Shown piece by piece: positions 1 through 16,921 of a stretch of DNA of 16,945 bases. Numbering within the stretch: position 1 is the first letter of the stretch; each line of letters begins with the position of its first letter. Location: the sequence record GU815339.1, one strand, 5' to 3'. Made by a program: the position numbers and the translations under genes. The stretch is from Enterococcus phage EFRM31. The notes below the pieces were generated by a model, which worked only from the letters and a program-made list of their open reading frames with translations, was not told the origin of the DNA and ran no database searches.

Positions 1-12
1 AAAATTTAGCTC

Positions 13-49
13 TCCCTCCCATTTTATTTTGGTAGTCCCTCCCACTTTT
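13..49. repeat. two direct copies of TCCCTCCCA(T/C)TTTT (13-25 and 36-49), 23 nt apart, downstream of leftward HNH gene
   Basis: Seen directly in sequence; on minus strand reads TGGGAGGGA x2 (SD-like). Confidence 0.5.
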
Positions 50-79
50 TAAAATCTGATAGCCCCAACCTACCTGCAA

Positions 80-451
80 TCACCCCTTGCGGTGGCGGAA
101 GCTGGCTGAATGCTCTTCTTTATTGTGACACTCTTGACAGATGCTTTCTAGGTTATCTATATCCAACCTATGTTCCCAACCCATTGTGGTCCGTACCTCT
201 TGCCTATGATGCACTATGGTTGCTATGCTTGTATTACATACTTCACACATTGGATTCATTGATAGCTTTCTTGCTCTAACGTTTCGCCACTGTGTTGATG
301 CATAGAAGTCCGCATACTTCTTGTTATCTGGTGAATGTCTTACTTGCTTGTTGTATGTCTTTGCTTGTTGTCCTCTGTGTTGTTCACAGTATACTTCTGG
401 TATGTCTACATACTCCCTGCAGTGTGCAACCTTACACCGTCGCTTAGGCAT
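80..451 (-). CDS. HNH endonuclease, zinc-finger type (phage HNH family)
   Basis: ORF track 80..463. Motifs CxxC...HH...CxxCHN (CEVC, HH, CQECHN). Likely ATG start at 451 overlapping upstream stop as TAATG (translational coupling); GTG at 463 is the alternative. Confidence 0.8.
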   Translation of the reverse strand: MPKRRCKVAHCREYVDIPEVYCEQHRGQQAKTYNKQVRHSPDNKKYADFYASTQWRNVRARKLSMNPMCEVCNTSIATIVHHRQEVRTTMGWEHRLDIDNLESICQECHNKEEHSASFRHRKG

Positions 452-654
452 TAGAAGCCCCACATATCTTTGTTAGTATTACTATTAAAGATGTCATAAG
501 ATACTTTAGGTTTGGTTGTTGGTTCTGTTGTTGGTTGTTCTGTTGTGTCTGATGTGTTGGTAACCATTGCTTGCTCTAACTGTCTGATGTATGATACTAA
601 CTCTAACTTAGTATGAGATAGTAGTTGCTTGTCTGTCATGCCCTCCATGTTCAT
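451..654 (-). CDS. hypothetical protein (Thr/Pro-rich C-terminal half)
   Basis: ORF track. Minus-strand RBS AGAGGAGGG 9 nt upstream of ATG at 654. Confidence 0.5.
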   Translation of the reverse strand: MNMEGMTDKQLLSHTKLELVSYIRQLEQAMVTNTSDTTEQPTTEPTTKPKVSYDIFNSNTNKDMWGF

Positions 655-976: not shown

Positions 977-985
977 ATTATAGCA
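977..985 (-). promoter_or_regulatory. leftward promoter, extended -10 (TGCTATAAT on minus strand)
   Basis: Plus-strand ATTATAGCA at 977-985 is the reverse complement of TGnTATAAT. Positioned upstream of the minus-strand operon. No clear -35. Confidence 0.4.
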
Positions 986-1417: not shown

Positions 1418-1750
1418 ATGTACAAAAAGAAAATAAGAAGTAGAAGCTTTGAACAAATTGAATTAAACAAAGAAGAGGTAAGACAATACTTATCTGAACA
1501 CAATTACAAGATATGTAATGTAGACCACAGAAGATGGATTCCACTTGTAGACGCATGTAAACATTTCAATGAGTGGTCAGACACAGAAGAAAGAATCACA
1601 GTATTTGACTTCACATACGCACTATTTATTATTGCAATATATGATTACAATGTACCAACAAAAGGAACAACCAAGTTAGTAAATGGTAAGCAACAAAAAG
1701 TATTAACTAATATTTATATCAAACCAACATTTAAGGAGGAAACAAAATGA
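1418..1750 (+). CDS. hypothetical early protein (first gene of rightward operon)
   Basis: ORF track. RBS AGGAGGAAACAATATG. Confidence 0.6.
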   Translation: MYKKKIRSRSFEQIELNKEEVRQYLSEHNYKICNVDHRRWIPLVDACKHFNEWSDTEERITVFDFTYALFIIAIYDYNVPTKGTTKLVNGKQQKVLTNIYIKPTFKEETK

Positions 1751-2124
1751 TTAAACGAGAACTACACACAGCAATCACTAACAGAGATATTGAAGAAATA
1801 CTTGACCACATTAGTGGTGAAACAAAGATTGTAAGTCACGTTGTTGACAGTCTTGGTACGCATTACATTATTACTGAAACAGAAGAACCTGAAACACAAG
1901 AACCTGAAAATGAAATACAAAAACTTGAACAACTTATTAAAAGTACACAGGACCATTTCACAGAGGACTTATACAATTGTGTTGATAATATGAATTTCTA
2001 CTATAGTCAAGGTATAATGACAGATTATAGAGAGTATGTAAAACAGTATGATGGAATAATGAAACGATATGGAGAAAGATTAAAAGATTTAAACAAAAAG
2101 CTTGAAAAACTAAAACAAGTATAG
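1747..2124 (+). CDS. hypothetical acidic protein (Glu/Asp-rich)
   Basis: ORF track. RBS AAGGAGGAAACAAAATG. ATGA overlap with upstream stop. Confidence 0.6.
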   Translation: MIKRELHTAITNRDIEEILDHISGETKIVSHVVDSLGTHYIITETEEPETQEPENEIQKLEQLIKSTQDHFTEDLYNCVDNMNFYYSQGIMTDYREYVKQYDGIMKRYGERLKDLNKKLEKLKQV

Positions 2125-2164
2125 TAAACTGGTTTCATAAGATAAGATAAGAGGAGGAAACAAA

Positions 2165-2353
2165 ATGACATTCAAAAAAGGCGATAAGGTGAAATACACG
2201 GATAGTTTTTGGTTTGATGAATTAGGAAAAATTGAAGGTGAACAACCAAACACAATAGTGTTTACAGTGGAATGGGCTTCTGAAACAGTATTACGATTAG
2301 CGGGCTTTACTTATACATTCGAACCAAAATATTTTGAAAAAGTGGAAAAATAG
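2165..2353 (+). CDS. hypothetical small protein
   Basis: ORF track. RBS GAGGAGGAAACAAAATG. Preceded by TCATAAGATAAG leader motif. Confidence 0.55.
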   Translation: MTFKKGDKVKYTDSFWFDELGKIEGEQPNTIVFTVEWASETVLRLAGFTYTFEPKYFEKVEK

Positions 2354-2366
2354 GAGGAACAGTTAA

Positions 2367-2447
2367 ATGATTGACTTAAAAAATATATTACTAGGTATTG
2401 TTGTTGGTTGTGTGCTAAAGTGGTTAAAGGATAGAGGTAAATTATAA
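2367..2447 (+). CDS. 26-aa hydrophobic micropeptide (MIDLKNILLGIVVGCVLKWLKDRGKL)
   Basis: Not in ORF track (under 60 aa). RBS TAGGAGGAACAGTTAAATG. Stop overlaps next start as TAATG. Confidence 0.35.
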   Translation: MIDLKNILLGIVVGCVLKWLKDRGKL

Positions 2448-2662
2448 TGAACTCACGCCTAAATGATGAAGTATTTCAAGATTGTATGCAACCAAGATAC
2501 GTTAACCGTGACGAACCAAGGCAATACGAATGTATTACAATAAATCATAAAGACCAGATTGACACACAGTATATTTACGCTTATACTATTAAAGAAGCAA
2601 TTGAAATGCTACACAAAATGCAAAACGTAACACGCATAATTGATATTAAGGAGGTAAAGTAA
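2447..2662 (+). CDS. hypothetical small protein
   Basis: ORF track. Translationally coupled to upstream micropeptide. Confidence 0.55.
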   Translation: MNSRLNDEVFQDCMQPRYVNRDEPRQYECITINHKDQIDTQYIYAYTIKEAIEMLHKMQNVTRIIDIKEVK

Positions 2663-3067
2663 ATGAAATACACAGAAAAAGACATTAAAGAAGGTACTAA
2701 ATTAATTTGCACAAAAGGCAATATAATCTGGTGGACCGTAGGTAAATTGTATGAAGTAAAACTAACTAAAGATGATAGTTTATCAATTAAGGACGACCAT
2801 GGACATGACGCATATACAGATTATATGTTAGACTGTTTAAACGGAGACCATATAGTAAAATTTGAAATTGTTGAACAACCAACCGCAACAATCACAGTGG
2901 ACGTTGAACAACGGTTAAATGATAAGATTGAATCACTAAGAAGTGAACGTGAAAATATCTTAAGTAAAATGGATAGAATGGAAGCACAACAACTTAAATT
3001 GCGTGATAAAATCAATAAACTAAGCGAAGCGAAAAAAGCGCTAGAAATTTTAAAAGAATTTAAGTAA
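2663..3067 (+). CDS. hypothetical protein with C-terminal coiled coil
   Basis: ORF track. RBS AAGGAGGTAAAGTAAATG. Confidence 0.6.
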   Translation: MKYTEKDIKEGTKLICTKGNIIWWTVGKLYEVKLTKDDSLSIKDDHGHDAYTDYMLDCLNGDHIVKFEIVEQPTATITVDVEQRLNDKIESLRSERENILSKMDRMEAQQLKLRDKINKLSEAKKALEILKEFK

Positions 3068-3073
3068 AACACT

Positions 3074-3102
3074 TGACACCTACTATATCACATGGTATAG
3101 TA
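3074..3102 (+). promoter_or_regulatory. promoter TTGACA-17-TATAGT embedded in an 11-bp perfect inverted repeat (CACCTACTATA / TATAGTAGGTG, 3077-3106)
   Basis: Seen in sequence. Shares AAAACACTTGACA with the promoter at 6987. Confidence 0.5.
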
Positions 3103-3132
3103 GGTGTATAAGATAACTAAGGAGGAAATAAC

Positions 3133-3210
3133 ATGGCAGTATTTGGTTTAGTATTTGTAACAGTTGGTATATTTGGTACTTACAACATTATAAAGTATAT
3201 TGAGGACTAG
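3133..3210 (+). CDS. 25-aa hydrophobic micropeptide (MAVFGLVFVTVGIFGTYNIIKYIED)
   Basis: Not in ORF track. RBS AAGGAGGAAATAACATG. Confidence 0.35.
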   Translation: MAVFGLVFVTVGIFGTYNIIKYIED

Positions 3211-3221
3211 GAGGAACAAGA

Positions 3222-3446
3222 ATGCCAGTAAAAACGAACTATTATATTTGTTTAACAAATAATGAACTATTCAGCTTATACACAGAAGAACCAATTCTTG
3301 TAATGTATGAAAAAGCAGTTGAAAATGATGAAAAGTTATTGAAATTGGAAAAACCAGAAGCAATTGAAATTGATGGTGAAATGCAATACACATTTATCAC
3401 CATTCCATTAGATTCAATATTATATGTATTGGAGGACGCAAAATAA
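3222..3446 (+). CDS. hypothetical acidic small protein
   Basis: ORF track. RBS TAGGAGGAACAAGAATG. Confidence 0.55.
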   Translation: MPVKTNYYICLTNNELFSLYTEEPILVMYEKAVENDEKLLKLEKPEAIEIDGEMQYTFITIPLDSILYVLEDAK

Positions 3447-3601
3447 TGAGATTATTAGAAGCAATCGCAATCGCTTTATTGGTAACATTCGCAATCGCAG
3501 TACCACTATTATTTGTATTTATTATTTATATGGCATATGTAACTGATGGCTGGGGCGGCATTTGGTTAATGTTAATTGTTTTGTGGATTATGATTAAATA
3601 G
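3446..3601 (+). CDS. 51-aa membrane protein (MRLLEAIAIALLVTFAIAVPLLFVFIIYMAYV...)
   Basis: Not in ORF track. ATG overlaps upstream stop (TAATG). Two hydrophobic helices. Confidence 0.45.
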   Translation: MRLLEAIAIALLVTFAIAVPLLFVFIIYMAYVTDGWGGIWLMLIVLWIMIK

Positions 3602-3612
3602 GAGGAATAGTA

Positions 3613-3834
3613 ATGAAGAAAGATGTAGGTACGTTTTGGAAATTTGAAAATGATTCATGGTACTTCTTTATTATTGGTAGTTTTGAAGATGAAGTTAGTG
3701 TATGTGCAATTGACACTTCAAACAATCAAATTAGTTTTATGATGATGAACCACGAACAAACAATTGACTTTATACCAAGTGATAATTTTGAAATGAATAA
3801 CTATTTAATTGAGGTGATGGGAAAATATGAGTGA
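3613..3834 (+). CDS. hypothetical small protein
   Basis: ORF track. RBS TAGGAGGAATAGTAATG. Confidence 0.55.
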   Translation: MKKDVGTFWKFENDSWYFFIIGSFEDEVSVCAIDTSNNQISFMMMNHEQTIDFIPSDNFEMNNYLIEVMGKYE

Positions 3835-4045
3835 TTCAGTGAAGGTTATTGGCTCAATTTGGGCTTCAACTGATGGTCTAAATATTTACAGAATTGACCA
3901 GATAGACACACGTGGTTATTTTATCACATTGTTAGATAATGAAATAAACATGGTTTCTAAAGCATGGATACACAAGCAAGCTACAATGTGTGACACAAAA
4001 GCAACAAAAGCACAAAAACAACAATTTGAGGAGGAAGCAAAATGA
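3827..4045 (+). CDS. hypothetical small protein
   Basis: ORF track. Overlaps neighbours, indicating operonic coupling. Confidence 0.55.
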   Translation: MSDSVKVIGSIWASTDGLNIYRIDQIDTRGYFITLLDNEINMVSKAWIHKQATMCDTKATKAQKQQFEEEAK

Positions 4046-4248
4046 GTAGAATTAATAAATTAGAAGCATTATGTTTAGCAGTGGCATTCGTTGTTTTATT
4101 AGGTTGTTTCATATTGTTAGGAATCGCAGTTGTGTGCATTTTACTATCATTAAACACTATAGAATGGTTAATTGTGGGTGTTGCGTTAGTATTAATATTA
4201 ATGCTTTGGGTTGGCATATACCAATATGATAAACAAAAATATAATTAA
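4042..4248 (+). CDS. small membrane protein (2 TM)
   Basis: ORF track. RBS GAGGAGGAAGCAAAATG. Hydrophobic. Confidence 0.55.
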   Translation: MSRINKLEALCLAVAFVVLLGCFILLGIAVVCILLSLNTIEWLIVGVALVLILMLWVGIYQYDKQKYN

Positions 4249-4264
4249 ATATGCTATTATAAGG

Positions 4265-4301
4265 GAGAAAGTTAAATAAAACAGTTGACTTTCTCTTTTT
4301 T
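4265..4301 (+). terminator. rho-independent terminator (stem GAGAAAGT/ACTTTCTC + T6) overlapping the next promoter -35
   Basis: Seen in sequence. Near-identical cassette repeated at 5938-5975. Confidence 0.55.
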
Positions 4302-4313
4302 ACATGGTATATT
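4285..4313 (+). promoter_or_regulatory. promoter TTGACT-17-TATATT with CATGGTATA motif; leader TCATAAGATATTAGGAGGA
   Basis: Seen in sequence; consensus spacing. Confidence 0.55.
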
Positions 4314-4342
4314 AATGTCATAAGATATTAGGAGGAATAATA

Positions 4343-5929
4343 ATGGTAAATGAATTACAAAAAGTTGAATATGACCAACCAGTGGAATTAAGCTTTATCA
4401 GCACGCTTGAAAAGACTTTGACACCTAGCAAGCAATATATCAAAGCACTAAAGGAGTATGAAAAGGATCACAAAGAGTGGGAAGTGGACTTCAAAAATGG
4501 AGATGTGGCTAAGAATGCAGAACCACAACGACCAGAACCAACATATGATGGCTTAAACGCAGAAGCCTTAGCTGTTCACATGGCTAAGGTGTTGCCAGTA
4601 CACGCAAGTTCTACAATTGGTTTACCAGTTGTTTACAACCATGACACAAAAATTTATGAGGTATCAGAGGACAATTTAGAAGCTCGTTTATGGCAAAAGC
4701 TTTACAATGAATTTATGATGGTCTACACACCACATTATGCAGAAAATGCAAAGGTTGCTAACCAATTTAGAAATGCAGTCCAAAGAATGGCAAAAAATGC
4801 GCTTGCTTCTGGTGCTAACTTACCATTTAATGACAAAATGGACCCAAATAAGATTGCATTTAAAAATGGGACATATCGCTTTAAAGAGGACACATTAAAA
4901 CCAACGGTAAAAGAGGACTACCAAACAACAAGAATTGAATATGATTATATTGATAATCCTAAACACAATATCGTTGCTGAATGGATTGAGTACATTTTAG
5001 AAGAGGACGCAAAAACACTATTTCAATTGATTGGACGTATTTTCTACCGCAACCAAGACCCACAAGCAATGGTATTTGCAACTGGTGAAGGTAGTAACGG
5101 TAAATCGCATGTAATGAGCTTCATTGAGGACCTAGTAGGTAAATCAAATACAAGTCATGCAACACTAGCTAGCTTGTCAGGTAATAATGACAAATTCGCA
5201 AGCTCTCAATTATTTGGTAAAATGGTAAATATTGAAACTGATATGCCAGCGCAACACATTAAGCAAACAGGTACACTGAAAACATTGTCAGGTAATGACG
5301 TAATGAGTGCAGAGTATAAAGGTATTAACAAGTTCACATTTACGAACTACGCACTAATGATTTTCACAACTAATAACATGCCTACTTTTTCAGACACTTC
5401 ACATGGTTTCTTGCGCCGTATTATCACGCTTCCATTTAACAAGACCATGGGAAGAGATAACCCAACAGATTCAATGTGGCTAGAACGTTCAAAGAATTTC
5501 ACATATGAAGAAAAGTCAGAGTTTATCAGCTACTGTCTGCAACAATATAGAAATGTATTGTTTGGGCTAAATGGAGAAACAAAAGGGCAGTTCTGGACCA
5601 GTGATAATGCAAATAAATTACGTGACGCATTTATCCAAGGAAATGACACAATGGCTAACTTTATTGAATTGAATGAACTTGAATTTACAAACAATATTGA
5701 TGATGTAATTCCAAATACAGAATTATTAGAAGCATATAACACTATGTTACGTGAAGAGAATCTAATGGAAGTATCAGCCAAGAAGTTCATTCCAGAATTG
5801 AAACGTAAAGCACAATCAGAAAACATTATTCTTAGTGTAATTACTAAGCGTGTTGATGGAAGAGTACAACGTTGTACAACTAACGTGAGATGGAAAACCA
5901 ATACCTCTGAAACAGATAATATTTTTTAA
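4343..5929 (+). CDS. DNA helicase / primase-associated NTPase, D5_N + SF3 (phage/plasmid primase P4-family C-terminal domain)
   Basis: Walker A GEGSNGKS. Motif pattern of the D5/P4 SF3 NTPase family (FTTN, RR finger region). 528 aa. No recognisable primase (AEP/DnaG) catalytic motifs seen by eye. Confidence 0.85.
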   Translation: MVNELQKVEYDQPVELSFISTLEKTLTPSKQYIKALKEYEKDHKEWEVDFKNGDVAKNAEPQRPEPTYDGLNAEALAVHMAKVLPVHASSTIGLPVVYNHDTKIYEVSEDNLEARLWQKLYNEFMMVYTPHYAENAKVANQFRNAVQRMAKNALASGANLPFNDKMDPNKIAFKNGTYRFKEDTLKPTVKEDYQTTRIEYDYIDNPKHNIVAEWIEYILEEDAKTLFQLIGRIFYRNQDPQAMVFATGEGSNGKSHVMSFIEDLVGKSNTSHATLASLSGNNDKFASSQLFGKMVNIETDMPAQHIKQTGTLKTLSGNDVMSAEYKGINKFTFTNYALMIFTTNNMPTFSDTSHGFLRRIITLPFNKTMGRDNPTDSMWLERSKNFTYEEKSEFISYCLQQYRNVLFGLNGETKGQFWTSDNANKLRDAFIQGNDTMANFIELNELEFTNNIDDVIPNTELLEAYNTMLREENLMEVSAKKFIPELKRKAQSENIILSVITKRVDGRVQRCTTNVRWKTNTSETDNIF

Positions 5930-5937
5930 AATAATTT

Positions 5938-5975
5938 AAAGAAAGTTGACTAAAACAGTTGACTTTCTTTTTTTC
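5938..5975 (+). terminator. rho-independent terminator (AAAGAAAGT/ACTTTCTTT + T8) containing tandem AGTTGACT x2
   Basis: Seen in sequence. Duplicate of the 4265-4301 cassette. Confidence 0.55.
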
Positions 5976-5987
5976 GCATGGTATACT
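5959..5987 (+). promoter_or_regulatory. promoter TTGACT-17-TATACT; leader TTCATAAGTTAAGAGGAGGAATTAAACAATG
   Basis: Seen in sequence; consensus spacing. Confidence 0.55.
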
Positions 5988-6018
5988 TAGTTCATAAGTT
6001 AAGAGGAGGAATTAAACA

Positions 6019-6186
6019 ATGACAATCAAAATAGGTAATGAAGTAATGGGTGTTAAAGAATGGTCAGGAAATGGATTAATCAAAGGACATAAATATGTTA
6101 TCAAAGATATTGACAGTAACATTGAAGAAGGTTTAAAGTATGTTGTACGTGATTCATCAGGTTATTTCTGGGTGTGGGATTGGTAA
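6019..6186 (+). CDS. 55-aa hypothetical protein (MTIKIGNEVMGVKEWSGNGLIKGHKYVIKDIDSNIEEGLKYVVRDSSGYFWVWDW)
   Basis: Not in ORF track (under 60 aa). Perfect RBS and the conserved leader shared with the 6283 gene. Confidence 0.5.
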   Translation: MTIKIGNEVMGVKEWSGNGLIKGHKYVIKDIDSNIEEGLKYVVRDSSGYFWVWDW

Positions 6187-6223
6187 ATAGAAAAAATTAA
6201 TTTAAAAAGTTAATAAAAAGGGG

Positions 6224-6252
6224 TTGACAAACTTCTAAAAGCTTGATATAAT
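6224..6252 (+). promoter_or_regulatory. strong promoter TTGACA-17-TATAAT with extended -10 (TGATATAAT)
   Basis: Seen in sequence. AAAAGGGGTTGACAA shared with the promoter at 6482. Confidence 0.6.
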
Positions 6253-6282
6253 CAATTCATAAGTTAAGGGAGGAATTAAACA

Positions 6283-6471
6283 ATGACAACTAAAGAAAAA
6301 TACGAAAACAAATTACAAAAATTAAACGAAAGATTTGACAAATTAAAAGCTGAAATGATTGAAGCATACGACAAAGGAGATAACGAAAAAGGACATGAAC
6401 TAAACGATAGACTAGAAAACATGTTAGATGTGATTTTACTAACTGAAACAGTATTAGAAAACTTAAAATAA
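6283..6471 (+). CDS. hypothetical coiled-coil small protein
   Basis: ORF track. Leader and RBS identical to the 6019 gene. Confidence 0.55.
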   Translation: MTTKEKYENKLQKLNERFDKLKAEMIEAYDKGDNEKGHELNDRLENMLDVILLTETVLENLK

Positions 6472-6485
6472 AATCAGAAAAGGGG

Positions 6486-6514
6486 TTGACAAGTTCAGCC
6501 CCAACTGATATACT
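6486..6514 (+). promoter_or_regulatory. promoter TTGACA-17-TATACT (TGATATACT extended -10)
   Basis: Seen in sequence. Confidence 0.55.
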
Positions 6515-6543
6515 TAATTCATAAATTAAAAGGAGGATATGAG

Positions 6544-7005
6544 ATGGACTTTCAAATTGGAACAGTAAAGAAAACACAAGGACAAGTAAAGAAACACATT
6601 ACGCAATGTACTACACAAGAGAAAGAACAACTAAACAAAGCAAAAGACAGAGTGAAAGACTTGTGGTTAAAGCGTGGTATAAAAACAGGGTATCACTTAC
6701 AAGATAAAATAAGAAACGGTGAAACTAAATTTTCATATCTGCGAGCAATGGAAGCAATGATACATGGTGAAATTATTGAATATAACGAAACAGGTGCAGA
6801 TAAACGTGTTTTGATTCGTTCAGGAATTGGGCATGTAGGTGAATCTATTGATGATATAGTAGTACAATGTATAGTGGTTTCTCTATTTAGCGGTAAAGTA
6901 ATTACAAGCTATTTAAACAAAGCTAGTGATAGACATAAGACACTTGACCCAAGGCGATATAATAAAAATTTAAAAATTAATTTACCAAAACACTTGACAA
7001 AATAA
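6544..7005 (+). CDS. hypothetical protein (153 aa); 3' end contains the next promoter
   Basis: ORF track. RBS AAAGGAGGATATGAGATG. Confidence 0.55.
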   Translation: MDFQIGTVKKTQGQVKKHITQCTTQEKEQLNKAKDRVKDLWLKRGIKTGYHLQDKIRNGETKFSYLRAMEAMIHGEIIEYNETGADKRVLIRSGIGHVGESIDDIVVQCIVVSLFSGKVITSYLNKASDRHKTLDPRRYNKNLKINLPKHLTK

Positions 7006-7022
7006 AAACAATCATTTATACT
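6994..7022 (+). promoter_or_regulatory. promoter TTGACA-17-TATACT, followed by a second TATATAAT
   Basis: Seen in sequence. AAAACACTTGACA shared with 3067. Confidence 0.5.
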
Positions 7023-7053
7023 AAGTATATAATCAATTAGGAGGAATAAATAA

Positions 7054-7326
7054 ATGAAACATAAAGGATTAATCATTGGATTGGCAGTAGGATTGAGTTT
7101 TTCAGGAAGTACAGCAATGTTGGCAAACAACTTAAACAAGCAGAAATTGAATGAAGCTAAACAGGAATTACACTTATACAAAGAATTGAATGAACGTCAA
7201 CAAGATATTATTTTAGAGTATAAAGTAGTATCAGGAATTGAAGTATCAAGTATCACAAAAACATTAGACAATAAAGAGTTAATCAAAGAATTAGAAAAAC
7301 GAATTAACAAATTGGAGGATAAATAA
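7054..7326 (+). CDS. small exported/anchored coiled-coil protein (N-terminal signal-peptide-like segment)
   Basis: ORF track. N-terminus MKHKGLIIGLAVGLSFSGSTAMLA followed by a heptad-like KELNE repeat region. Confidence 0.55.
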   Translation: MKHKGLIIGLAVGLSFSGSTAMLANNLNKQKLNEAKQELHLYKELNERQQDIILEYKVVSGIEVSSITKTLDNKELIKELEKRINKLEDK

Positions 7327-7327
7327 A

Positions 7328-7489
7328 ATGAATGAAAATATGGAAGTTTTAACGGCAATTTTAGTGGCAAATTTAGTAGGTATTTTAACAATTGTATTCA
7401 CAACGTCAAGTGACGCTGGTTTAGTATCTTGGTTAGTATCATTCGCATTAACATTCTTAGCAATTCAAACATTTACGGAGGTTGAATAA
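7328..7489 (+). CDS. 53-aa membrane protein (MNENMEVLTAILVANLVGILTIVFTTSSDAGLVSWLVSFALTFLAIQTFTEVE)
   Basis: Not in ORF track. Starts 2 nt after the upstream stop. RBS TTGGAGGATAAATAAAATG. Confidence 0.45.
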   Translation: MNENMEVLTAILVANLVGILTIVFTTSSDAGLVSWLVSFALTFLAIQTFTEVE

Positions 7490-7490
7490 C

Positions 7491-7700
7491 ATGAATTTAT
7501 TACAAGCGTATGAAGTGGTTGACAGTCATTTTTTAGTAGTGAAAGAATCAAATGGTATGACTGCATTAGTAATTGACACAACAAGCGACAAGTCAGTAGC
7601 ACGATTATTTAATAAATATAATGAGTTGACAAAGGTATTAAATATCAGTTACAATGAATCATGGGGCGGAATTGAATTAGTAATTGGAGAGGAAGAATAA
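7491..7700 (+). CDS. hypothetical small protein
   Basis: ORF track frame (7482..7700). ATG at 7491 with GGAGG 10 nt upstream preferred over TTG 7482. Confidence 0.55.
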   Translation: MNLLQAYEVVDSHFLVVKESNGMTALVIDTTSDKSVARLFNKYNELTKVLNISYNESWGGIELVIGEEE

Positions 7701-7702
7701 TA

Positions 7703-7894
7703 ATGAAAACAGAACGTATTATTGCAATTGACAATATTTTGAATGAACTGGAAAATGATTTCAGAAGTAAAGGTGTTTCACAAGATGACATAGAAAAGTA
7801 TGCAACATACACAGTATTAGCAATGTTAGGTGTATTTTCTCAAAATAATATTGATGTAGAAAAAGCCATTGAAGTATTGACAAATATGTTATAA
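7703..7894 (+). CDS. hypothetical acidic small protein
   Basis: ORF track. RBS GGAGAGGAAGAATAATAATG. Confidence 0.55.
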   Translation: MKTERIIAIDNILNELENDFRSKGVSQDDIEKYATYTVLAMLGVFSQNNIDVEKAIEVLTNML

Positions 7895-7919
7895 GGTAAT
7901 AAAAAAGGTGGTTCAAACC

Positions 7920-8294
7920 ATGGGAAGAGAAGCTAACTTTAGTAGAGAAGTTGTAAAGTATTTGAAGAGTAGAGGTGCATTAGTAAACGTCAATACAGCA
8001 AACATATATGACCGCGTTGGACGTGCAGACATTGAAGCATGTTATAAAGGTTATTATATCGCTTTAGAATTGAAAACAGGTAACTACAAAGCTGATAAAT
8101 TACAAATACGATATTTACAAGAAATTAGATGTGCTGGTGGATATGGGCTATTATTAAGAGATACGCTAGATGATTTAGAGGACCTATTACTTCACTTAGA
8201 CCAGATGGATAATGGTGTGGAATATCCATACACATATGAACAACCAGATTTACCAGAAATAAATTATGACGAATTGGAGATTGACTATGATTGA
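7920..8294 (+). CDS. VRR-NUC-like PD-(D/E)xK nuclease
   Basis: ORF track frame (7908 GTG; ATG 7920 with AAGGTGG RBS). D...E-L-K arrangement (GRADIEA ... IALELKTG) typical of VRR-NUC phage nucleases. Context: next to helicase. Confidence 0.55.
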   Translation: MGREANFSREVVKYLKSRGALVNVNTANIYDRVGRADIEACYKGYYIALELKTGNYKADKLQIRYLQEIRCAGGYGLLLRDTLDDLEDLLLHLDQMDNGVEYPYTYEQPDLPEINYDELEIDYD

Positions 8295-8787
8295 AGAATG
8301 GAAAGATATTAAAGGTTATGAGGGTTTATATCAGGTTAGTAACTTAGGTAGAGTGAAGAGTTTAAAGTTTGGTAAAGAACGGATATTGAAGACAGGTGTA
8401 GACCGTTATGGATACATATCTGTTAATTTATATAAAAATAACAAAAGAAAACTATGTAAAGTCCACCGCTTAGTAGCTCAAGCATTCATACCAAACCATG
8501 AAAATAAACCACAAGTAAACCATATTGATGAAGATAAAACAAATAACATGGTTTCCAATCTTGAATGGGTTACAGCTAAGGAGAATGTAAATCATGGTAC
8601 ACGTAATGATAGAGTTTCAAAAGCAGTCAAGGTTATTGATATTGCAAACGGTGAATATAATTACTATAATTCAATCAATGAATGTGTAAGACAACTTGGA
8701 CTCCATCAAGGTAATGTCGTTAGTTGCTTAAAAGGTAGACGTAAAACATGCGGTGGATACACCTTTAAATATAAGGAGGTGGACTAA
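8287..8787 (+). CDS. HNH endonuclease, NUMOD4 + HNH_3 (homing-endonuclease-type)
   Basis: N-terminus MIEEWKDIKGYEGLYQVSNLGRVKS (NUMOD4 signature) and HNH_3 core (VHRLVAQAF...NHIDEDKTNN...NLEWVT). Start 8287 overlaps the VRR-NUC stop by 8 nt. Stop abuts the terS ATG. Confidence 0.85.
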   Translation: MIEEWKDIKGYEGLYQVSNLGRVKSLKFGKERILKTGVDRYGYISVNLYKNNKRKLCKVHRLVAQAFIPNHENKPQVNHIDEDKTNNMVSNLEWVTAKENVNHGTRNDRVSKAVKVIDIANGEYNYYNSINECVRQLGLHQGNVVSCLKGRRKTCGGYTFKYKEVD

Positions 8788-9261
8788 ATGGCACGACCAC
8801 GAAAATTAATCAACGCAACAAACAAACACTATACTGAAGAAGAACGTATTCAAAAACAAAAAGAAGAAAAAAAATTGTACAGCTACGAACCTTTAGACTT
8901 TTCATATTTTCCAATGGGGTTATTACGAGGTGCTTATGCAGAATGGGAACGAATTGGTAACTTCGTAGGAGATTTACCACTAAGTGAGTTAGATTCGCAG
9001 ACACTTGTTTCTTACTGTAACTATGTTTACTTATACAGTAAACTAGCAGAAGAGGTTTCTATTGAGGGTGAAGTGACAGAAGATGGAAAGCTAAACCCCA
9101 AAGTAACCGCAATGATGGGTTATAGTAAGCAAATCAAAAGCGCAACTAATGACTTAGGTTTAACTATCAATTCAAGATTGAAACTGGTAGCACCAAAAGA
9201 AGTAGAGGACGAAAGCAAAGACCCACTAGGTCAATTGCTTAAAATGCGTACACAAGCATAA
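8788..9261 (+). CDS. terS: terminase small subunit, P27 family
   Basis: N-terminus MARPRK..., size ~157 aa, position immediately upstream of terL. RBS AAGGAGGTGGACTAAATG. Confidence 0.8.
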   Translation: MARPRKLINATNKHYTEEERIQKQKEEKKLYSYEPLDFSYFPMGLLRGAYAEWERIGNFVGDLPLSELDSQTLVSYCNYVYLYSKLAEEVSIEGEVTEDGKLNPKVTAMMGYSKQIKSATNDLGLTINSRLKLVAPKEVEDESKDPLGQLLKMRTQA

Positions 9262-9266
9262 GATTT

Positions 9267-9277
9267 TGTGTTATAAT
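9267..9277 (+). promoter_or_regulatory. extended -10 promoter (TGTGTTATAAT) immediately after terS
   Basis: TGnTATAAT seen in sequence. Weak -35 TACACA 17 bp upstream. A second TATAAT sits at 9315-9320. Confidence 0.45.
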
Positions 9278-9283
9278 GTATTT

Positions 9284-9523
9284 ATGTAAAAGATATTCTA
9301 TATTATTTGTATAGTATAATAATAGCGGGTATTATTATACAGGCGCAACTACTCCAATAGTTGCGGACATGTTAGCTAAAGTGTTGTGAGGAACGCCGTA
9401 TACAGAAGGTCCGCTAACTGTATAACAACACTTTAGCATTAAAGAATGGTTGCTGTGCGACCAATTGACTTAGGTAAGTTTGTTATCCCCTTTGGATAAA
9501 CTCATGACCTAAGTCTTTTTATT
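9284..9523 (+). ncRNA. candidate structured non-coding RNA (~240 nt) between terS and terL
   Basis: Own promoter and own terminator. Four strong hairpins: 9314-9340 (11-bp AT stem, GCGGG loop), 9344-9365 (8 bp), 9375-9437 (13-bp + 7-bp stems with 11-nt bulge), 9467-9515 (terminator). No ORF above 17 codons. No tRNA-like T-loop. Confidence 0.4.
9467..9523 (+). terminator. rho-independent terminator (GACTTAGGT...ACCTAAGTC long imperfect stem + TTTTTATTT)
   Basis: Seen in sequence. Confidence 0.6.
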
Positions 9524-9534
9524 TGTGCTATAAT
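9524..9534 (+). promoter_or_regulatory. extended -10 promoter (TGTGCTATAAT) for terL
   Basis: TGnTATAAT 22 nt upstream of the terL ATG at 9556. Confidence 0.5.
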
Positions 9535-9555
9535 AATGATAAGGAGGTAATACAT

Positions 9556-11280
9556 ATGAATAATATTGATTATGTACAAGACTATATAGACTACGTAAAA
9601 GAAAATCAAATACCAATAGGTAATAAAATCAAACAAGCTATTAGACGACATGAAAAAGATTTAGAGAAGTCAAAAGACCCAGACTATCCATATTACTATG
9701 ACCCTAAAGAAGCATTAGAACCAGTGGTTTTTATTGAAATGCTACCAGACCCAAAGACACGCAAAACAAATAAGCTAGCTAAGTTCCAGAAGTTTATTAT
9801 TGCAATGATATATGGGTGGCGCAAAAAGAAAAACGGAATGCGCAGATTCAGAAAAGTATATATCAGTTTAGCACGTAAGAACGGAAAATCTATTCTGGTT
9901 GCTGGTATCTCACTATACGAGTTTCTATTAGGTCAATATCCACAGGCAAGCCGTCAGATAGTCGCCGCCGCCAACACCAAAGACCAAGCAGGTATTGTAT
10001 TCAACATGTTAAAATCACAGCTAAAGGCATTGCGTGCAGTAAGTGATGGAACAAGGAAAGTAACCAAAGTTAATAAGAAAGACATTGAACACTTAGAAGA
10101 TGAATCAACGGTTAAGCCACTATCAAGTGATGCAGATAGCTTAGACGGACTAGACGTGCTATGTGGTGTACTTGATGAGTATGGAGAAGCTAAAAGCACA
10201 GCCATGATTGAGGTATTAGAAAGTTCACAGTCACAACAATTACAAGGTTTAATTTTGATTATTAGTACAACAACCAAAAACTTGAATGGACCAATGCACA
10301 GCATAGAATACCCATTTATAACTAAGCTACTTAATGAGGAAGTGGAAGCTGATGCTTACCTTGCATTGTGTTGGGAAATGGATAGCCTAAGTGAAGTAGA
10401 TGATGAAGCTAACTGGATTAAGAGTAACCCATTATTTGAGAATGCACAGTTACATGAAACAATGTACGAACATAAGGTTAACTCATTAGCAGAGTATAAG
10501 GCTAAGGGTGACATGAGTGGTTGGCTAACTAAAGAGATGAACTTCTGGGTACAATCATCACAAGACAGTTTCATTGATAAAGAATCTTGGGAAGCTGTTA
10601 AACAAACACAACCGTATGACATAAAAGGTAGACCAGTTTATATAGGGCTGGATTTGGCACGTACAGGCGATATGACGGCTGTTAGTTGGGTGATACCTAT
10701 TGCAGAGGAACGCAAGCTACTTCTTGACAGTCACGCTTTTATAGCCTCTGTGGGCGGTATTGAAGCTAAACAGATAAAAGATAAGATACCGTATAGACAG
10801 TATGAGAACTTAGGACTAGTAAACATCAGTCAGCGACCAGATGGTTTGATAGACCATGAAGATATGTGCGAATGGATAAGAGAGTTCATAACAGAGTATG
10901 ACTTAGACCTACAAGGTATTTACTATGACGGACACCAAGCAACACCATCTGTAATCAACTTAAGCAAGGACTTTCCAGACAAACTAATTGAAGTACCACA
11001 GCGCATCCAGTATTTAAATGCACCTACAAAGTACTTACGTGATGCAATTATCAAGGGTGAAGTGATTCAAACAGATAACCCACTACTAACTAGAGCGGTA
11101 TATAATGCTATTATGCGTGAGTTTGCGGACAATATAGCTATTGAAAAGGCTATGAATCGTAACAAAATTGACCCTATAGATGCCTTAATTAATGCAATGA
11201 GTGAAGCAATGTACTTTGATTATGAGTATATTAGCTTTAAAGAACTGATTGAAGAAGGTAAATTTGGATTTGGTGTATAA
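9556..11280 (+). CDS. terL: terminase large subunit (Terminase_1-type ATPase + nuclease)
   Basis: Walker A SLARKNGKS. Length ~575 aa. ATG 9556 with AAGGAGGT RBS preferred over the track start 9523. Gene order. Confidence 0.9.
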   Translation: MNNIDYVQDYIDYVKENQIPIGNKIKQAIRRHEKDLEKSKDPDYPYYYDPKEALEPVVFIEMLPDPKTRKTNKLAKFQKFIIAMIYGWRKKKNGMRRFRKVYISLARKNGKSILVAGISLYEFLLGQYPQASRQIVAAANTKDQAGIVFNMLKSQLKALRAVSDGTRKVTKVNKKDIEHLEDESTVKPLSSDADSLDGLDVLCGVLDEYGEAKSTAMIEVLESSQSQQLQGLILIISTTTKNLNGPMHSIEYPFITKLLNEEVEADAYLALCWEMDSLSEVDDEANWIKSNPLFENAQLHETMYEHKVNSLAEYKAKGDMSGWLTKEMNFWVQSSQDSFIDKESWEAVKQTQPYDIKGRPVYIGLDLARTGDMTAVSWVIPIAEERKLLLDSHAFIASVGGIEAKQIKDKIPYRQYENLGLVNISQRPDGLIDHEDMCEWIREFITEYDLDLQGIYYDGHQATPSVINLSKDFPDKLIEVPQRIQYLNAPTKYLRDAIIKGEVIQTDNPLLTRAVYNAIMREFADNIAIEKAMNRNKIDPIDALINAMSEAMYFDYEYISFKELIEEGKFGFGV

Positions 11281-16302: not shown

Positions 16303-16342
16303 TGATATAATTATTCTAGTAAGAAAATATAAACACTAAAGG
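16303..16342 (+). promoter_or_regulatory. late-gene upstream element TGATATAAT + TTCTAGTAAGAAAATATAAACACTAAAGG leader (copy 2)
   Basis: Matches the element upstream of the capsid gene. Confidence 0.45.
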
Positions 16343-16354
16343 AGAGAAACAATT

Positions 16355-16921
16355 ATGGCAGTAGTAGGTTTTAAGAAAGCTATTATCAGCGTACCTAAAG
16401 CAGAAGGTTCTGGCGTTGATAAATACACAATTGATAAAAGCGGTGGCGGTACTATTGAAGCGTCAATTAAAGGAATTTCAGCAGAACAAACAACCGTTTA
16501 TGCGTCAAACGTTCCAATTTGGGTATCAGCTAAAGGGGTTGGAGAGTTAACAGCTTCATTAAACGTATTTGACTTGTATAAAGACAACGTTTATGAGAAA
16601 ATTTTAGGTATTGAACGTGGTGAAGATGGTATTGCAATCGTTGGTGAAGATACAGAAGCACCTTACGTTTCAGCAGTATTTGTTGCAGACGGTGCAGACG
16701 GTAAAGAAATGTACTTTGGTTTAGTTAAAGGACGTTTCAGCCACCCAGAAATCGCATTGAATACAACAGAATCTGGTGGTACAGAACCAAACACAGAAAC
16801 AATTGAAGGTTCATTTGTAACAGATTCACGTGGCTTTGCATACATGAGTGCTGTTTCAAGCGAAACATTAACACTTGATAAGTTTGTTGACAAAGTAAAC
16901 AATATTAATCCATTGCCCTAG
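16355..16921 (+). CDS. major tail protein (siphovirus tail tube, TP901-1/phi13-like)
   Basis: 188 aa. Gly/Ser/Thr-rich beta protein after neck genes. RBS AAAGGAGAGAAACAATTATG. Confidence 0.85.
   Translation: MAVVGFKKAIISVPKAEGSGVDKYTIDKSGGGTIEASIKGISAEQTTVYASNVPIWVSAKGVGELTASLNVFDLYKDNVYEKILGIERGEDGIAIVGEDTEAPYVSAVFVADGADGKEMYFGLVKGRFSHPEIALNTTESGGTEPNTETIEGSFVTDSRGFAYMSAVSSETLTLDKFVDKVNNINPLP

What the first reader, a model, noticed from the sequence alone, without database searches (positions are those of the whole stretch)
9262..9555. Promoter-structured RNA-terminator unit inserted between terS and terL (candidate novel ncRNA, or cos/packaging-site region)
terS and terL are normally adjacent or overlapping; here they are separated by 294 bp. 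The spacer has its own extended -10 promoter (TGTGTTATAAT, 9267-9277) and about 240 nt of densely hairpinned, non-coding sequence. It ends in a strong intrinsic terminator (9467-9523) and is immediately followed by a second extended -10 promoter (TGTGCTATAAT) that restarts transcription for terL. The four hairpins are: an 11-bp AT stem with GCGGG loop; an 8-bp GC-richer stem with CUCCAA loop; a 13+7-bp stem with an 11-nt purine-rich bulge GAGGAACGCCG; and the terminator. That architecture fits a standalone small RNA gene. Possibilities include a packaging-associated RNA by loose analogy with phi29 pRNA, a regulatory sRNA, or an anti-defence RNA decoy. Alternatively, the DNA could be the cos site with terminase-binding inverted repeats, since the upstream region (VRR-NUC/HNH/terS all overlapping) leaves no room for cos there.
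Basis: partly seen in the sequence, partly recalled or inferred. Interest (0 to 1): 0.75.

Follow-up and report, generated by a model that had tools for sequence, protein, structure and literature searches.

The report
Modular non-coding RNA cassette between terminase genes
The 294-bp gap between the two terminase genes of this Enterococcus phage is not a DNA packaging site; it is a self-contained, unannotated gene for a hairpin-rich non-coding RNA of about 240 nt, whose hairpin modules are swapped among related phages and in some relatives include a mimic of a bacterial anti-phage antitoxin RNA.

Summary
terS ends at 9261 and terL starts at 9556. A second extended -10 promoter (9524-9534) follows. 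The fold is far better than shuffles (z -5.5 to -5.7), and the three largest hairpins show compensatory changes in 16-17 distinct relatives.

It is not cos. In the close relative IME-EF4 the measured genome ends lie about 480 bp upstream of terS.

The spacer behaves as an accessory "RNA moron". Relatives have 41 to 603 bp here (945 in more distant ones), built from a shared set of hairpin modules in many combinations. An E. cecorum phage carries a related cassette, sharing the long hairpin, away from any annotated terminase gene. There is no Rfam match and no annotation in about 90 GenBank phages.

In some relatives, but not in this window, one module is an abiF-type hairpin, the RNA antitoxin of AbiF abortive-infection toxins, with no toxin gene beside it.

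Best reading: a trans-acting decoy RNA, probably anti-defence. That it is a structured RNA gene is well supported; the function is inferred.

The parts
8788..9261 (+). terS (small terminase, P27/Terminase_4 family). It is the upstream neighbour, and read-through transcripts would carry the RNA as a 3' UTR.
   Evidence: ORF list; Pfam PF05119, E 1.6e-12
9249..9277 (+). Promoter P1: weak -35 TACACA, 17-nt spacer, extended -10 TGTGTTATAAT (9267-9277). The predicted transcription start is near A9284.
   Evidence: Promoter scan 10/12 with TG; TGNTATAAT occurs 5 times in the window, all intergenic; P1 follows the terS stop in most alleles
9288..9313 (+). Module M1, the 5' leader AAAAGAUAUUCUAUAUUAUUUGUAUA. 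It is a diverged form of the commoner AAAACGCCUUCCAGAUGAUUUGUAG.
   Evidence: Alignment A1. The common form, but not the window's, is homologous to a site on E. faecalis plasmids.
9314..9340 (+). Module M2, hairpin 1: 11-bp A/U stem with a GCGGG loop. Relatives have an 8-bp stem; a G-rich loop core, mostly GGG, is kept.
   Evidence: Inverted repeat I7; fold; 94.9% of cells paired, 3 of 8 pairs with changes on both sides
9344..9365 (+). Module M3, hairpin 2: CGCAACUA / UAGUUGCG with a variable loop, followed by the conserved linker GACAUGUUAG (9366-9375), which is where modules are joined in relatives.
   Evidence: Inverted repeat I14; 97.8% paired, 4 of 8 pairs with changes on both sides; module junctions seen
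9375..9437 (+). Module H, the long hairpin. Outer stem 9375-9387/9425-9437; 11-nt bulge GAGGAACGCCG (9388-9398); inner stem 9399-9405/9418-9424; 12-nt loop AAGGUCCGCUAA (9406-9417). The bulge and the loop each contain a GG-N4-CC mini-hairpin.
   Evidence: Inverted repeat I4; fold; 93.1% paired, 12 of 20 pairs with changes on both sides, slid controls 26-53%; a further compensatory variant in a metagenome contig
9448..9462 (+).
   Evidence: Fold. Conserved in most alleles, with compensated variants GGUUG-CACGA-CAACC (Vaquero) and AGCUAC-AGU-GUGGCU (A40), seen by inspecting the sequences.
9467..9523 (+). Intrinsic terminator: base GACUUAGGU/ACCUAAGUC with an inner stem-loop, then UUUUUAUU. The RNA ends here, giving about 240 nt from the predicted start.
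   Evidence: Inverted repeat I2; fold; the short allele is called as a + strand terminator by the scan; the base and U-tract are conserved while the interior differs between alleles
9524..9534 (+). Promoter P3 (TGTGCTATAAT) for terL. It forms a 13-nt direct repeat with P1, so the cassette sits between two copies of one promoter.
   Evidence: Direct repeat D1; the cassette-less allele L012 has a single promoter in a 41-bp spacer
9541..9558 (+). terL ribosome-binding site AAGGAGG (9541-9547) and ATG (9556-9558).
   Evidence: Sequence; Pfam terL domains from 9556

Best explanation
The spacer is an autonomous accessory transcription unit, an 'RNA moron', inserted between terS and terL.

Host sigma-A RNA polymerase starts at the extended -10 promoter P1 (about 9284). 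It transcribes five hairpins (M2, M3, H, M10 and the terminator) and stops at the intrinsic terminator (about 9520), releasing a stable RNA of about 240 nt. A duplicate promoter, P3, then restarts transcription for terL, so late-gene expression does not depend on the cassette.

The RNA is a string of independently exchangeable hairpin modules with covarying stems and conserved loops and bulges, which is the signature of protein-binding sites. Its most likely role is in trans, as a decoy that titrates host RNA-binding defence proteins such as abortive-infection or toxin-antitoxin nucleases (antitoxin mimicry).

Shown here: the anatomy, the conservation of structure, the modularity, the independence from genomic context, and that it is not cos. 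Inferred: that the RNA is transcribed, that it acts in trans, and that its function is anti-defence. That last inference rests on sister alleles carrying an abiF-type antitoxin hairpin, which this window's allele lacks. My estimate is about 0.75-0.8 that this is a functional structured-RNA gene and about 0.3 that its function is anti-defence decoying; the confidence of 0.45 given for this explanation is for the whole statement taken together.
For: 1. Structure beyond chance: z -5.5 and -5.7.
2. Covariation: M2+M3 are 96% paired, with 7 of 16 pairs changed on both sides. H is 93% paired, with 12 of 20 pairs changed on both sides. Slid controls give 23-55%.
3. Transcription signals: consensus extended -10 promoters and a U-tailed terminator, all on the gene strand.
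4. Dispensable and modular: 29 distinct Efquatrovirus-type alleles (28 terS-terL spacers of 41-603 bp plus the A40 cassette) carry many different module combinations. One allele is just a promoter.
5. Independent of context: E. cecorum phage A40 has a related cassette (promoter, modules including H, terminator) after a nucleotide-kinase gene, with no terminase gene annotated nearby.
6. No + strand ORF in the spacer.
7. Link to anti-defence, in relatives only:
- Module M0 scores 29-32.6 bits on Rfam abiF (gathering score 37), with E 0.0013 in a local search.
- M0's best match in the plasmid collection is the leader of an 'Abi family protein' gene in Legionella plasmids.
- A covariance model built from phage copies alone finds that genuine leader at E 3.4e-5.
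- M0 itself covaries: 97% paired, 7 of 9 pairs changed on both sides.
- The abiF hairpin is a proven RNA antitoxin that binds the AbiF toxin (PMC12373285).
- 39 Enterococcus plasmids encode Abi-family proteins, with leaders of similar architecture.
8. Modules M1-M2 of relatives align over 52-57 nt (z about 10) with a site on E. faecalis plasmids. That site is antisense to the region downstream of a 39-aa hydrophobic ORF.
Against: - There is no transcript evidence. No Efquatrovirus transcriptome was found in the library.
- The window's own allele lacks the abiF-like module. Its M1-M2 shows no similarity to the plasmid site (z 0.3).
- No host counterpart of H, M2 or M3 was found. Motif scans for H found only Enterococcus phages plus chance hits, and BLAST of the spacer against plasmids found only weak AT-rich matches unrelated to Enterococcus.
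- The phage-derived abiF model hits the Enterococcus Abi leaders at the right place, but not significantly (9.3-9.6 bits, E about 0.4-0.5).
- Wobble pairs favour the + strand only mildly (13 G.U cells against 6 A.C cells). Both strands fold well.
- IME-EF4 lacks P1, so there its modules would exist only as a terS 3' UTR. This fits a cis role as well.
Confidence: 0.45

Rival explanations
1. A cis-acting mRNA element. The hairpins act as 3'-end stabilisers or RNase III-type processing sites for the terS message. The terminator plus P3 act as an insulator that uncouples terS from terL expression, as the intergenic RNase III hairpins of phage T7 do.
For: The position is directly after terS. IME-EF4 has the H/M10/terminator modules without P1, so there they are only a 3' UTR. 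H is about 20 bp with an internal loop, the size of an RNase III substrate (the T7 comparison is from general knowledge). The terminator-promoter junction is the most conserved part.
Against: Most alleles have their own strong promoter in front of the modules. Relatives manage with 41 or 92 bp. Modules are shuffled in many combinations, which an mRNA end does not require. The cassette has its own promoter in a different context in A40. The bulge and loop of H keep GG-N4-CC mini-hairpins in most alleles, which suggests specific recognition rather than a generic duplex.
Confidence: 0.2
2. Functionless debris. The promoters, terminators and hairpins are left behind by repeated insertion and loss of homing-endonuclease genes and other morons at a recombination hotspot.
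For: Homing HNH genes sit next to or inside this spacer in some phages: window 8266-8787, and L046 with an HNH/NUMOD-like ORF in the spacer. Promoters and terminators are duplicated. Length varies from 41 to 945 bp.
Against: Compensatory substitutions keep the hairpins paired, at 93-97% of cells. The GG-N4-CC units in the bulge and loop of H recur across alleles. The same modules persist in about 90 GenBank phages and in metagenome contigs.
Confidence: 0.1
3. A late-gene regulatory leader. The RNA made from P1 modifies RNA polymerase, or binds a phage factor, so that the polymerase reads through the terminator into terL. This would resemble the put RNA of HK022, or the PR'-6S RNA-tR' unit of lambda controlled by Q.
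For: The promoter / structured RNA / terminator / late genes layout resembles lambda PR'-tR'. Two adjacent conserved hairpins follow the promoter. Both comparisons are from general knowledge.
Against: A full consensus promoter, P3, sits immediately after the terminator, so read-through is unnecessary. The cassette is absent in L012 and minimal in EnP. A related cassette in A40 is not in front of late genes. No antiterminator gene was identified.
Confidence: 0.07
4. A DNA-level packaging site: cos, or terminase-binding inverted repeats.
For: It lies between the terminase genes and is rich in inverted repeats.
Against: [quoted passage not shown] They lie at the record end, 479 bp upstream of terS, across from the packaging HNH (PMC4445525).
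- The phiSHEF2 record opens at the same place.
- Window position 1 aligns to position 18 of the IME-EF4 record. It lies 26 nt from the corresponding end of the phiSHEF2 record.
- The spacer ranges from 41 to 603 bp among phages with at least 84% identical TerL N-terminal regions.
- Stems covary while loops stay fixed, which is an RNA signature.
Confidence: 0.03
5. A packaging RNA analogous to phi29 pRNA.
For: Only its location near the packaging genes.
Against: No Rfam family, pRNA included, matches at E up to 10. The phage has a classical terS/terL/portal cos system. Relatives lack the cassette.
Confidence: 0.02

Closest known systems
Morons of tailed phages (Hendrix/Juhala concept; from general knowledge)
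   Same: Extra DNA with its own promoter and its own factor-independent terminator, inserted between two genes that are adjacent in related phages. Presence is patchy and mosaic.
   Different: Classical morons carry a protein gene and are usually described in prophages. Here the payload is non-coding RNA, in phages classified in Efquatrovirus that are isolated as lytic.
abiF RNA motif (Rfam RF03085) / RCd22 antitoxin of AbiF (PMC12373285)
   Same: In sister alleles (phiSHEF4-like L015, IME196-like L024, Vaquero, A40), module M0 has the same two-stem architecture and loop CCUCUUAACAAUG. It matches the Rfam model at 29-32.6 bits, and reciprocally finds a genuine Abi-gene leader.
   Different: The scores are below Rfam's gathering score of 37. 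No Abi gene lies beside the module in the loci examined. The window's own RNA does not contain this module at all.
Pseudo-ToxI of Pectobacterium phage PhiTE, a phage-encoded mimic of a type III antitoxin RNA (from general knowledge)
   Same: The proposed logic is the same: a phage expresses an orphan copy of a host antitoxin RNA to keep an abortive-infection toxin silent.
   Different: Pseudo-ToxI is a tandem repeat homologous to ToxI, and its function was shown genetically. Here the mimicry is inferred, applies to relatives, and the RNA is a mixed string of unrelated hairpins.
Lambda PR'-6S RNA-tR' unit and HK022 put RNA (from general knowledge)
   Same: A constitutive promoter, a short structured RNA and a terminator sit ahead of late genes.
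   Different: A second full promoter follows the terminator, so antitermination is not needed. The cassette is dispensable and also occurs away from late genes.
cos sites of HK97-like HNH-dependent phages, including IME-EF4 (PMC4445525)
   Same: Close to the terminase genes and rich in inverted repeats.
   Different: The mapped ends lie about 480 bp upstream of terS, between the packaging HNH and terS, not in this spacer.
cabRNA of staphylococcal phages, a structured RNA from the terminase region sensed by CBASS (from general knowledge)
   Same: A structured phage RNA arising at the terS-terL locus that interacts with host immunity.
   Different: cabRNA overlaps coding sequence and triggers defence. 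No sequence relationship was tested or seen here.

Membership tests
cos site (cohesive-end packaging site) | Virion DNA ends map within the segment | tested here: not met
   By homology to experimentally mapped IME-EF4 ends: the record end (terminal sequence GAGATTCGTTTAAGCGAAAG) lies 479 bp upstream of terS (PMC4445525). Not measured for this phage itself.
cos site (cohesive-end packaging site) | Conserved among phages that share the same terminase | tested here: not met
   The spacer ranges from 41 to 603 bp, with different content, among phages whose TerL N-terminal regions are at least 84% identical.
phi29-type pRNA | Match to the pRNA family, and a packaging motor that needs an RNA ring | tested here: not met
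   No Rfam match of any kind above chance. A classical terS/terL system. Cassette-less relatives exist.
Moron (autonomous accessory transcription unit) | Own promoter | tested here: met
   TGTGTTATAAT scores 10/12 with TG. This is sequence evidence only; promoter activity was not tested.
Moron (autonomous accessory transcription unit) | Own factor-independent terminator | tested here: met
   Stem 9467-9515 plus a U-tract. The short allele is called by the terminator scan.
Moron (autonomous accessory transcription unit) | Inserted between genes that are adjacent in related phages | tested here: met
   L012/L031 have 41 bp with a single promoter, and EnP has 92 bp.
Moron (autonomous accessory transcription unit) | Payload is a protein-coding gene | tested here: not met
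   No + strand ORF of 20 aa or more lies inside the spacer, and the stems covary. Hence 'RNA moron'.
abiF RNA (RF03085) | Score at or above Rfam's gathering score (37 bits) in the window | tested here: not met
   No hit in the window at gathering threshold or at E up to 10. The phage-derived model R1 also finds nothing in the window.
abiF RNA (RF03085) | The same locus in relatives carries the motif | tested here: inconclusive
   29.0-32.6 bits, below the gathering score of 37. Against that, the module covaries and reciprocally hits a genuine Abi-gene leader at E 3.4e-5.
Phage-encoded antitoxin mimic (pseudo-ToxI type) | Resembles an antitoxin RNA of the phage's own host | tested here: inconclusive
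   Enterococcus plasmid Abi leaders share the architecture and ACGCCUCU...GCGCA, but score only 9.3-9.6 bits. No resemblance was found for the window's own modules.
Phage-encoded antitoxin mimic (pseudo-ToxI type) | Protects the phage from the cognate toxin | not testable with these tools
   Needs plating assays on strains with and without the Abi system.
Intrinsic terminator | G+C-containing stem followed by a U-run on the transcribed strand | tested here: met
   On the opposite strand no U-run follows the stem (sequence).

The most novel reading that the evidence does not exclude
Efquatrovirus phages and their relatives carry an RNA anti-defence island. A single, highly expressed transcript strings together interchangeable decoy hairpins. 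Each hairpin would mimic the RNA partner of a different host or plasmid toxin: the AbiF type III antitoxin, a plasmid antisense antitoxin, and others still unknown, including the H hairpin of this window. Phages would re-assort these modules by recombination to match the defence repertoire of their hosts.
Probability: 0.25. Interest if true: 0.85.

Novelty: new variant of a known kind. Interest (0 to 1): 0.62.

Why it matters
Efquatrovirus phages are among the phages most often isolated for therapy against E. faecalis and E. faecium. This locus is unannotated in about 90 deposited genomes.

If the RNA is an anti-defence decoy, its module content would help predict host range on strains that carry Abi or toxin-antitoxin plasmids. 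It would also be an easily engineered slot, since natural alleles range from empty to 600 nt.

It would extend RNA-based counter-defence, so far known from pseudo-ToxI and RNA anti-CRISPRs, to the AbiF family, the proposed ancestor of Cas13. It would also give a natural example of a multivalent decoy RNA.

Even if the function is different, this is a new covariation-supported RNA family with clear experimental handles.

Tried and rejected
- Rfam on the whole window (gathering threshold) and on the spacer (E up to 10): nothing credible. Nothing either for the long alleles of relatives, apart from abiF.
- tRNA/tmRNA scan: none.
- IME-EF4 cos overhang and flanks searched in the window: absent. 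The window holds only the left-end flank.
- 'Second copies elsewhere in the genome' suggested by BLAST: these were duplicated terminators inside the same spacer.
- Resemblances recalled from memory (type II tracrRNA nexus, Y RNA Ro-binding stem, E. faecalis CRISPR repeat): no Rfam support at E up to 10, and the motif is not conserved in the window's allele. Dropped.
- Genome-contig scan with a loose H pattern: the pattern was too permissive. None of the records listed was an Enterococcus genome, so I treated the hits as chance. This wasted the only scan of that collection.
- Stricter H patterns in viral and metagenome collections: only Enterococcus phages plus three GC-rich chance hits.
- BLAST of the window spacer against plasmids: only weak AT-rich matches.
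- Phage abiF-like model against Enterococcus Abi leaders: hits at the right position, but not significant.
- Strand test by wobble pairs: weakly favours the + strand, not decisive.
- Literature: no Efquatrovirus transcriptome and no description of this spacer.

Full report
**What is there**

The window comes from an Efquatrovirus-type Enterococcus siphophage. The terS-spacer-terL segment is 100% identical to phage vB_EfaS_SZ1, and 80-97% identical to about 100 other Enterococcus phages.

terS is 8788-9261 (Terminase_4) and terL is 9556-11280. The 294-bp spacer reads, in order:
- extended -10 promoter P1, TGTGTTATAAT (9267-9277; 10/12 with TG);
- an A/U-rich leader, M1;
- hairpin M2 (9314-9340, 11 bp, loop GCGGG);
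- hairpin M3 (9344-9365, 8 bp);
- the linker GACAUGUUAG;
- the long hairpin H (9375-9437), with outer stem 13 bp, 11-nt bulge, inner stem 7 bp and 12-nt loop;
- a terminator (stem 9467-9515, then UUUUUAUU);
- a second extended -10 promoter P3, TGTGCTATAAT (9524-9534), 21 nt ahead of the terL start codon.

TGNTATAAT occurs only five times in the 16.9-kb window, always intergenic and in the right orientation. The spacer folds at z -5.5, and the predicted 240-nt transcript at z -5.7. No + strand ORF of 20 aa or more lies in it.

**Is the structure selected?**

I collected terS-terL spacers from IMG/VR, GenBank and metagenome contigs. This gave 37 distinct spacers, plus the related cassette of phage A40.

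| Element | Distinct sequences | Cells paired | Pairs changed on both sides | Slid controls |
|---|---|---|---|---|
| M2+M3 | 17 | 96.3% | 7 of 16 | 23-55% |
| H | 16 | 93.1% | 12 of 20 | 26-53% |

For M2+M3, no shuffle reached the observed covariation score. The inner stem of H exists as UAUACAG/CUGUAUA (window, G01), UAUGUGG/CCACAUA, CGUUUGA/UCAAACG, UAUGCGA/UCGCAUA and UAUGCGG/CCGCAUA. The bulge and apical loop each keep a GG-N4-CC unit in most alleles. M10 has compensated variants too (inspection of the sequences).

Stems that change in a compensated way around fixed loops indicate a folded RNA recognised by something specific. Strand assignment rests on the promoter and terminator orientation. 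Wobble pairs favour the + strand only mildly (13 against 6 cells).

**It is not cos**

[quoted passage not shown] The terminal sequence reported there is the end of the GenBank record. It lies 479 bp upstream of terS, and the packaging-type HNH lies just across the junction. The phiSHEF2 record opens at the same place.

Window position 1 aligns to position 18 of the IME-EF4 record and lies 26 nt from the corresponding end of the phiSHEF2 record. So the window starts at the cos-proximal left end, and the packaging HNH is at 80-463 on the minus strand. The HNH gene abutting terS (8266-8787) is an I-HmuI/NUMOD4 homing endonuclease.

**It is an accessory, modular cassette**

Among phages whose TerL N-terminal regions are at least 84% identical, the spacer is 41 bp (one promoter only), 92, 169, 175, 252, 265, 294 and so on up to 603 bp. 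It is assembled from about a dozen recurring modules in many combinations (matrix).

The cassette is flanked by a 13-nt direct repeat of the promoter. The simplest history is therefore insertion of [modules + terminator + promoter] behind an ancestral terL promoter.

More distant IME-EFm1-like phages (TerL about 60% identical) hold a different but equally hairpin-rich, promoter- and terminator-bounded spacer of 314-945 bp. It sometimes contains a homing-endonuclease-like or other small ORF.

E. cecorum phage A40 carries a related cassette after a nucleotide-kinase gene, with no terminase gene annotated nearby. It has its own TGATATAAT promoter, an abiF-like hairpin, further modules absent from this window, H, an M10 variant and a terminator. 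The unit is therefore autonomous and not tied to packaging.

This architecture is that of a moron, but with an RNA payload. The matching stretch is unannotated in most of the roughly 90 GenBank records that hold these modules. I found no paper describing it.

**What might it do?**

The window's modules match no Rfam family. They match nothing meaningful in plasmids or in the motif scans.

Sister alleles give a lead. Module M0 (for example ACUACCGCGCCUCUUAACAAUGCGAACCAGGUAGUG in L015) matches the Rfam abiF motif:
- 31.1 bits (E 0.0013 in a local search; gathering score 37) in L015, 32.6 bits in A40 and 29.0 bits in Vaquero.
- Its best BLAST match in 72,556 plasmids is the 5' leader of an 'Abi family protein' gene on Legionella plasmids. 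That leader itself scores 42 bits on abiF.
- A covariance model built only from the phage copies (97% paired, 7 of 9 pairs with double changes) finds that leader at E 3.4e-5.

The abiF hairpin is the RNA antitoxin that binds and neutralises AbiF/Abi_2 toxins (PMC12373285). No Abi gene lies beside the phage copies in the loci examined.

Thirty-nine Enterococcus plasmids encode Abi-family proteins. Their leaders have the same outer-stem / A / CGC / loop / GCG / bulge layout and share ACGCCUCU...GCGCA with the phage variant M0v. The model scores them only 9.3-9.6 bits.

Separately, modules M1-M2 of several relatives align over 52-57 nt (z about 10) with a site on 31 E. faecalis plasmids. That site lies antisense to the region downstream of a 39-aa hydrophobic ORF, a possible type I toxin. 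The window's diverged M1-M2 does not align (z 0.3).

So two modules of this RNA family resemble antitoxin-type RNAs. That makes 'decoy antitoxin' the leading functional hypothesis for the family. For the window's own hairpins it is an extrapolation.

**Rivals**

- A cis role as a terS 3'-end stabiliser or RNase III site plus a terminator-promoter insulator remains possible (0.2). IME-EF4 lacks P1.
- Debris from homing-endonuclease traffic is contradicted by the covariation (0.1).
- A put/Q-like antitermination leader is made unnecessary by P3 (0.07).
- cos (0.03) and pRNA (0.02) are effectively excluded.

**Verdict**

This is a real, conserved, unannotated RNA gene of a new family, in a known architectural class: a phage moron or phage-encoded ncRNA.
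- Well supported: the anatomy, the selection for structure, the modularity, and that it is not cos.
- Inferred: transcription, trans action and the anti-defence role.

Interest is moderate to high, because the locus sits in widely used therapeutic phages, offers simple experiments, and may link phage RNAs to AbiF-type defence.

Noticed in passing
window 8190-8430 (whole-window layout): The gene order is unusual. In this window the early/replication arm (1418-8294, + strand, ending in VRR-NUC) runs straight into the homing HNH, terS, terL and portal on the same strand. In IME-EF4, SZ1 and phiSHEF2 these arms converge from opposite strands. Homology to other phages breaks at about 8286, inside an HNH gene type that occurs at two loci in inverted orientation in relatives. 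This is either an inversion by recombination between the two HNH copies or an assembly artefact.
   Followed up: partly
window 1-463: The window starts at the cos-proximal end of the genome: position 1 aligns to position 18 of the IME-EF4 record and lies 26 nt from the corresponding end of the phiSHEF2 record. The packaging-type HNH (PF01844) is at 80-463 on the minus strand, downstream of a TGCTATAAT promoter at 977-985 (minus strand).
   Followed up: partly
window 8266-8787: A free-standing I-HmuI-like homing endonuclease (NUMOD4 + HNH_3 + I-HmuI NUMOD-like) sits directly upstream of terS and overlaps the VRR-NUC ORF end. It is present in some relatives and absent in IME-EF4.
   Followed up: partly
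L034-L046 (IME-EFm1-like phages), terS-terL spacers: A different hairpin-rich spacer of 314-945 nt sits in the same slot. It includes a conserved complex module of about 130 nt (…GAUAGUAUGACCCUAC…GUAGGGCGUGUAUAU…CAGAUACUAA) and the M0v hairpin. There is no Rfam match. Some spacers carry an HNH/NUMOD-like ORF (L046) or a small ORF (L036).
   Followed up: partly
L175 2498-2557 (E. faecalis plasmid pARO1.1 and 30 other plasmids): A plasmid sequence homologous to phage modules M1-M2 lies antisense to the region downstream of a 39-aa hydrophobic ORF (2642-2761, minus strand: MKLRKQSKTTMENLVIVLTLISCALSIVESIVGILLAIF). It may be an unannotated type I toxin-antitoxin pair.
   Followed up: partly
L187 96-193 (Enterococcus sp. 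FDAARGOS_553 plasmid): A drum RNA (RF02958, 50.2 bits, above the gathering score of 43) lies about 470 nt upstream of an 'Abi family protein' gene. This is a possible association of that orphan motif with an Abi system.
   Followed up: no
L186 509-564 and L188 508-563 (E. faecalis / E. faecium plasmids): The leaders of enterococcal Abi-family genes form an abiF-like two-stem hairpin followed by a U-run (AGUACUUGCCACGCCUCUGAUUUUAUAUCACGCGCAUUAUGGUAAGGCUUUUUUUU). Rfam's abiF model does not detect it at E up to 1, so it may be an undescribed variant of the motif.
   Followed up: partly
L049 1400-1800 (phage A40): Downstream of the A40 cassette there is a further 400 nt of non-coding sequence with several TATAAT-type promoters and another terminator-like hairpin, before the next small ORFs.
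   Followed up: no
window 6244-6252 and 16303-16311: Two more consensus extended -10 promoters (TGATATAAT) lie in intergenic gaps. One is just upstream of the probable major tail protein gene (16355-16921).
   Followed up: no
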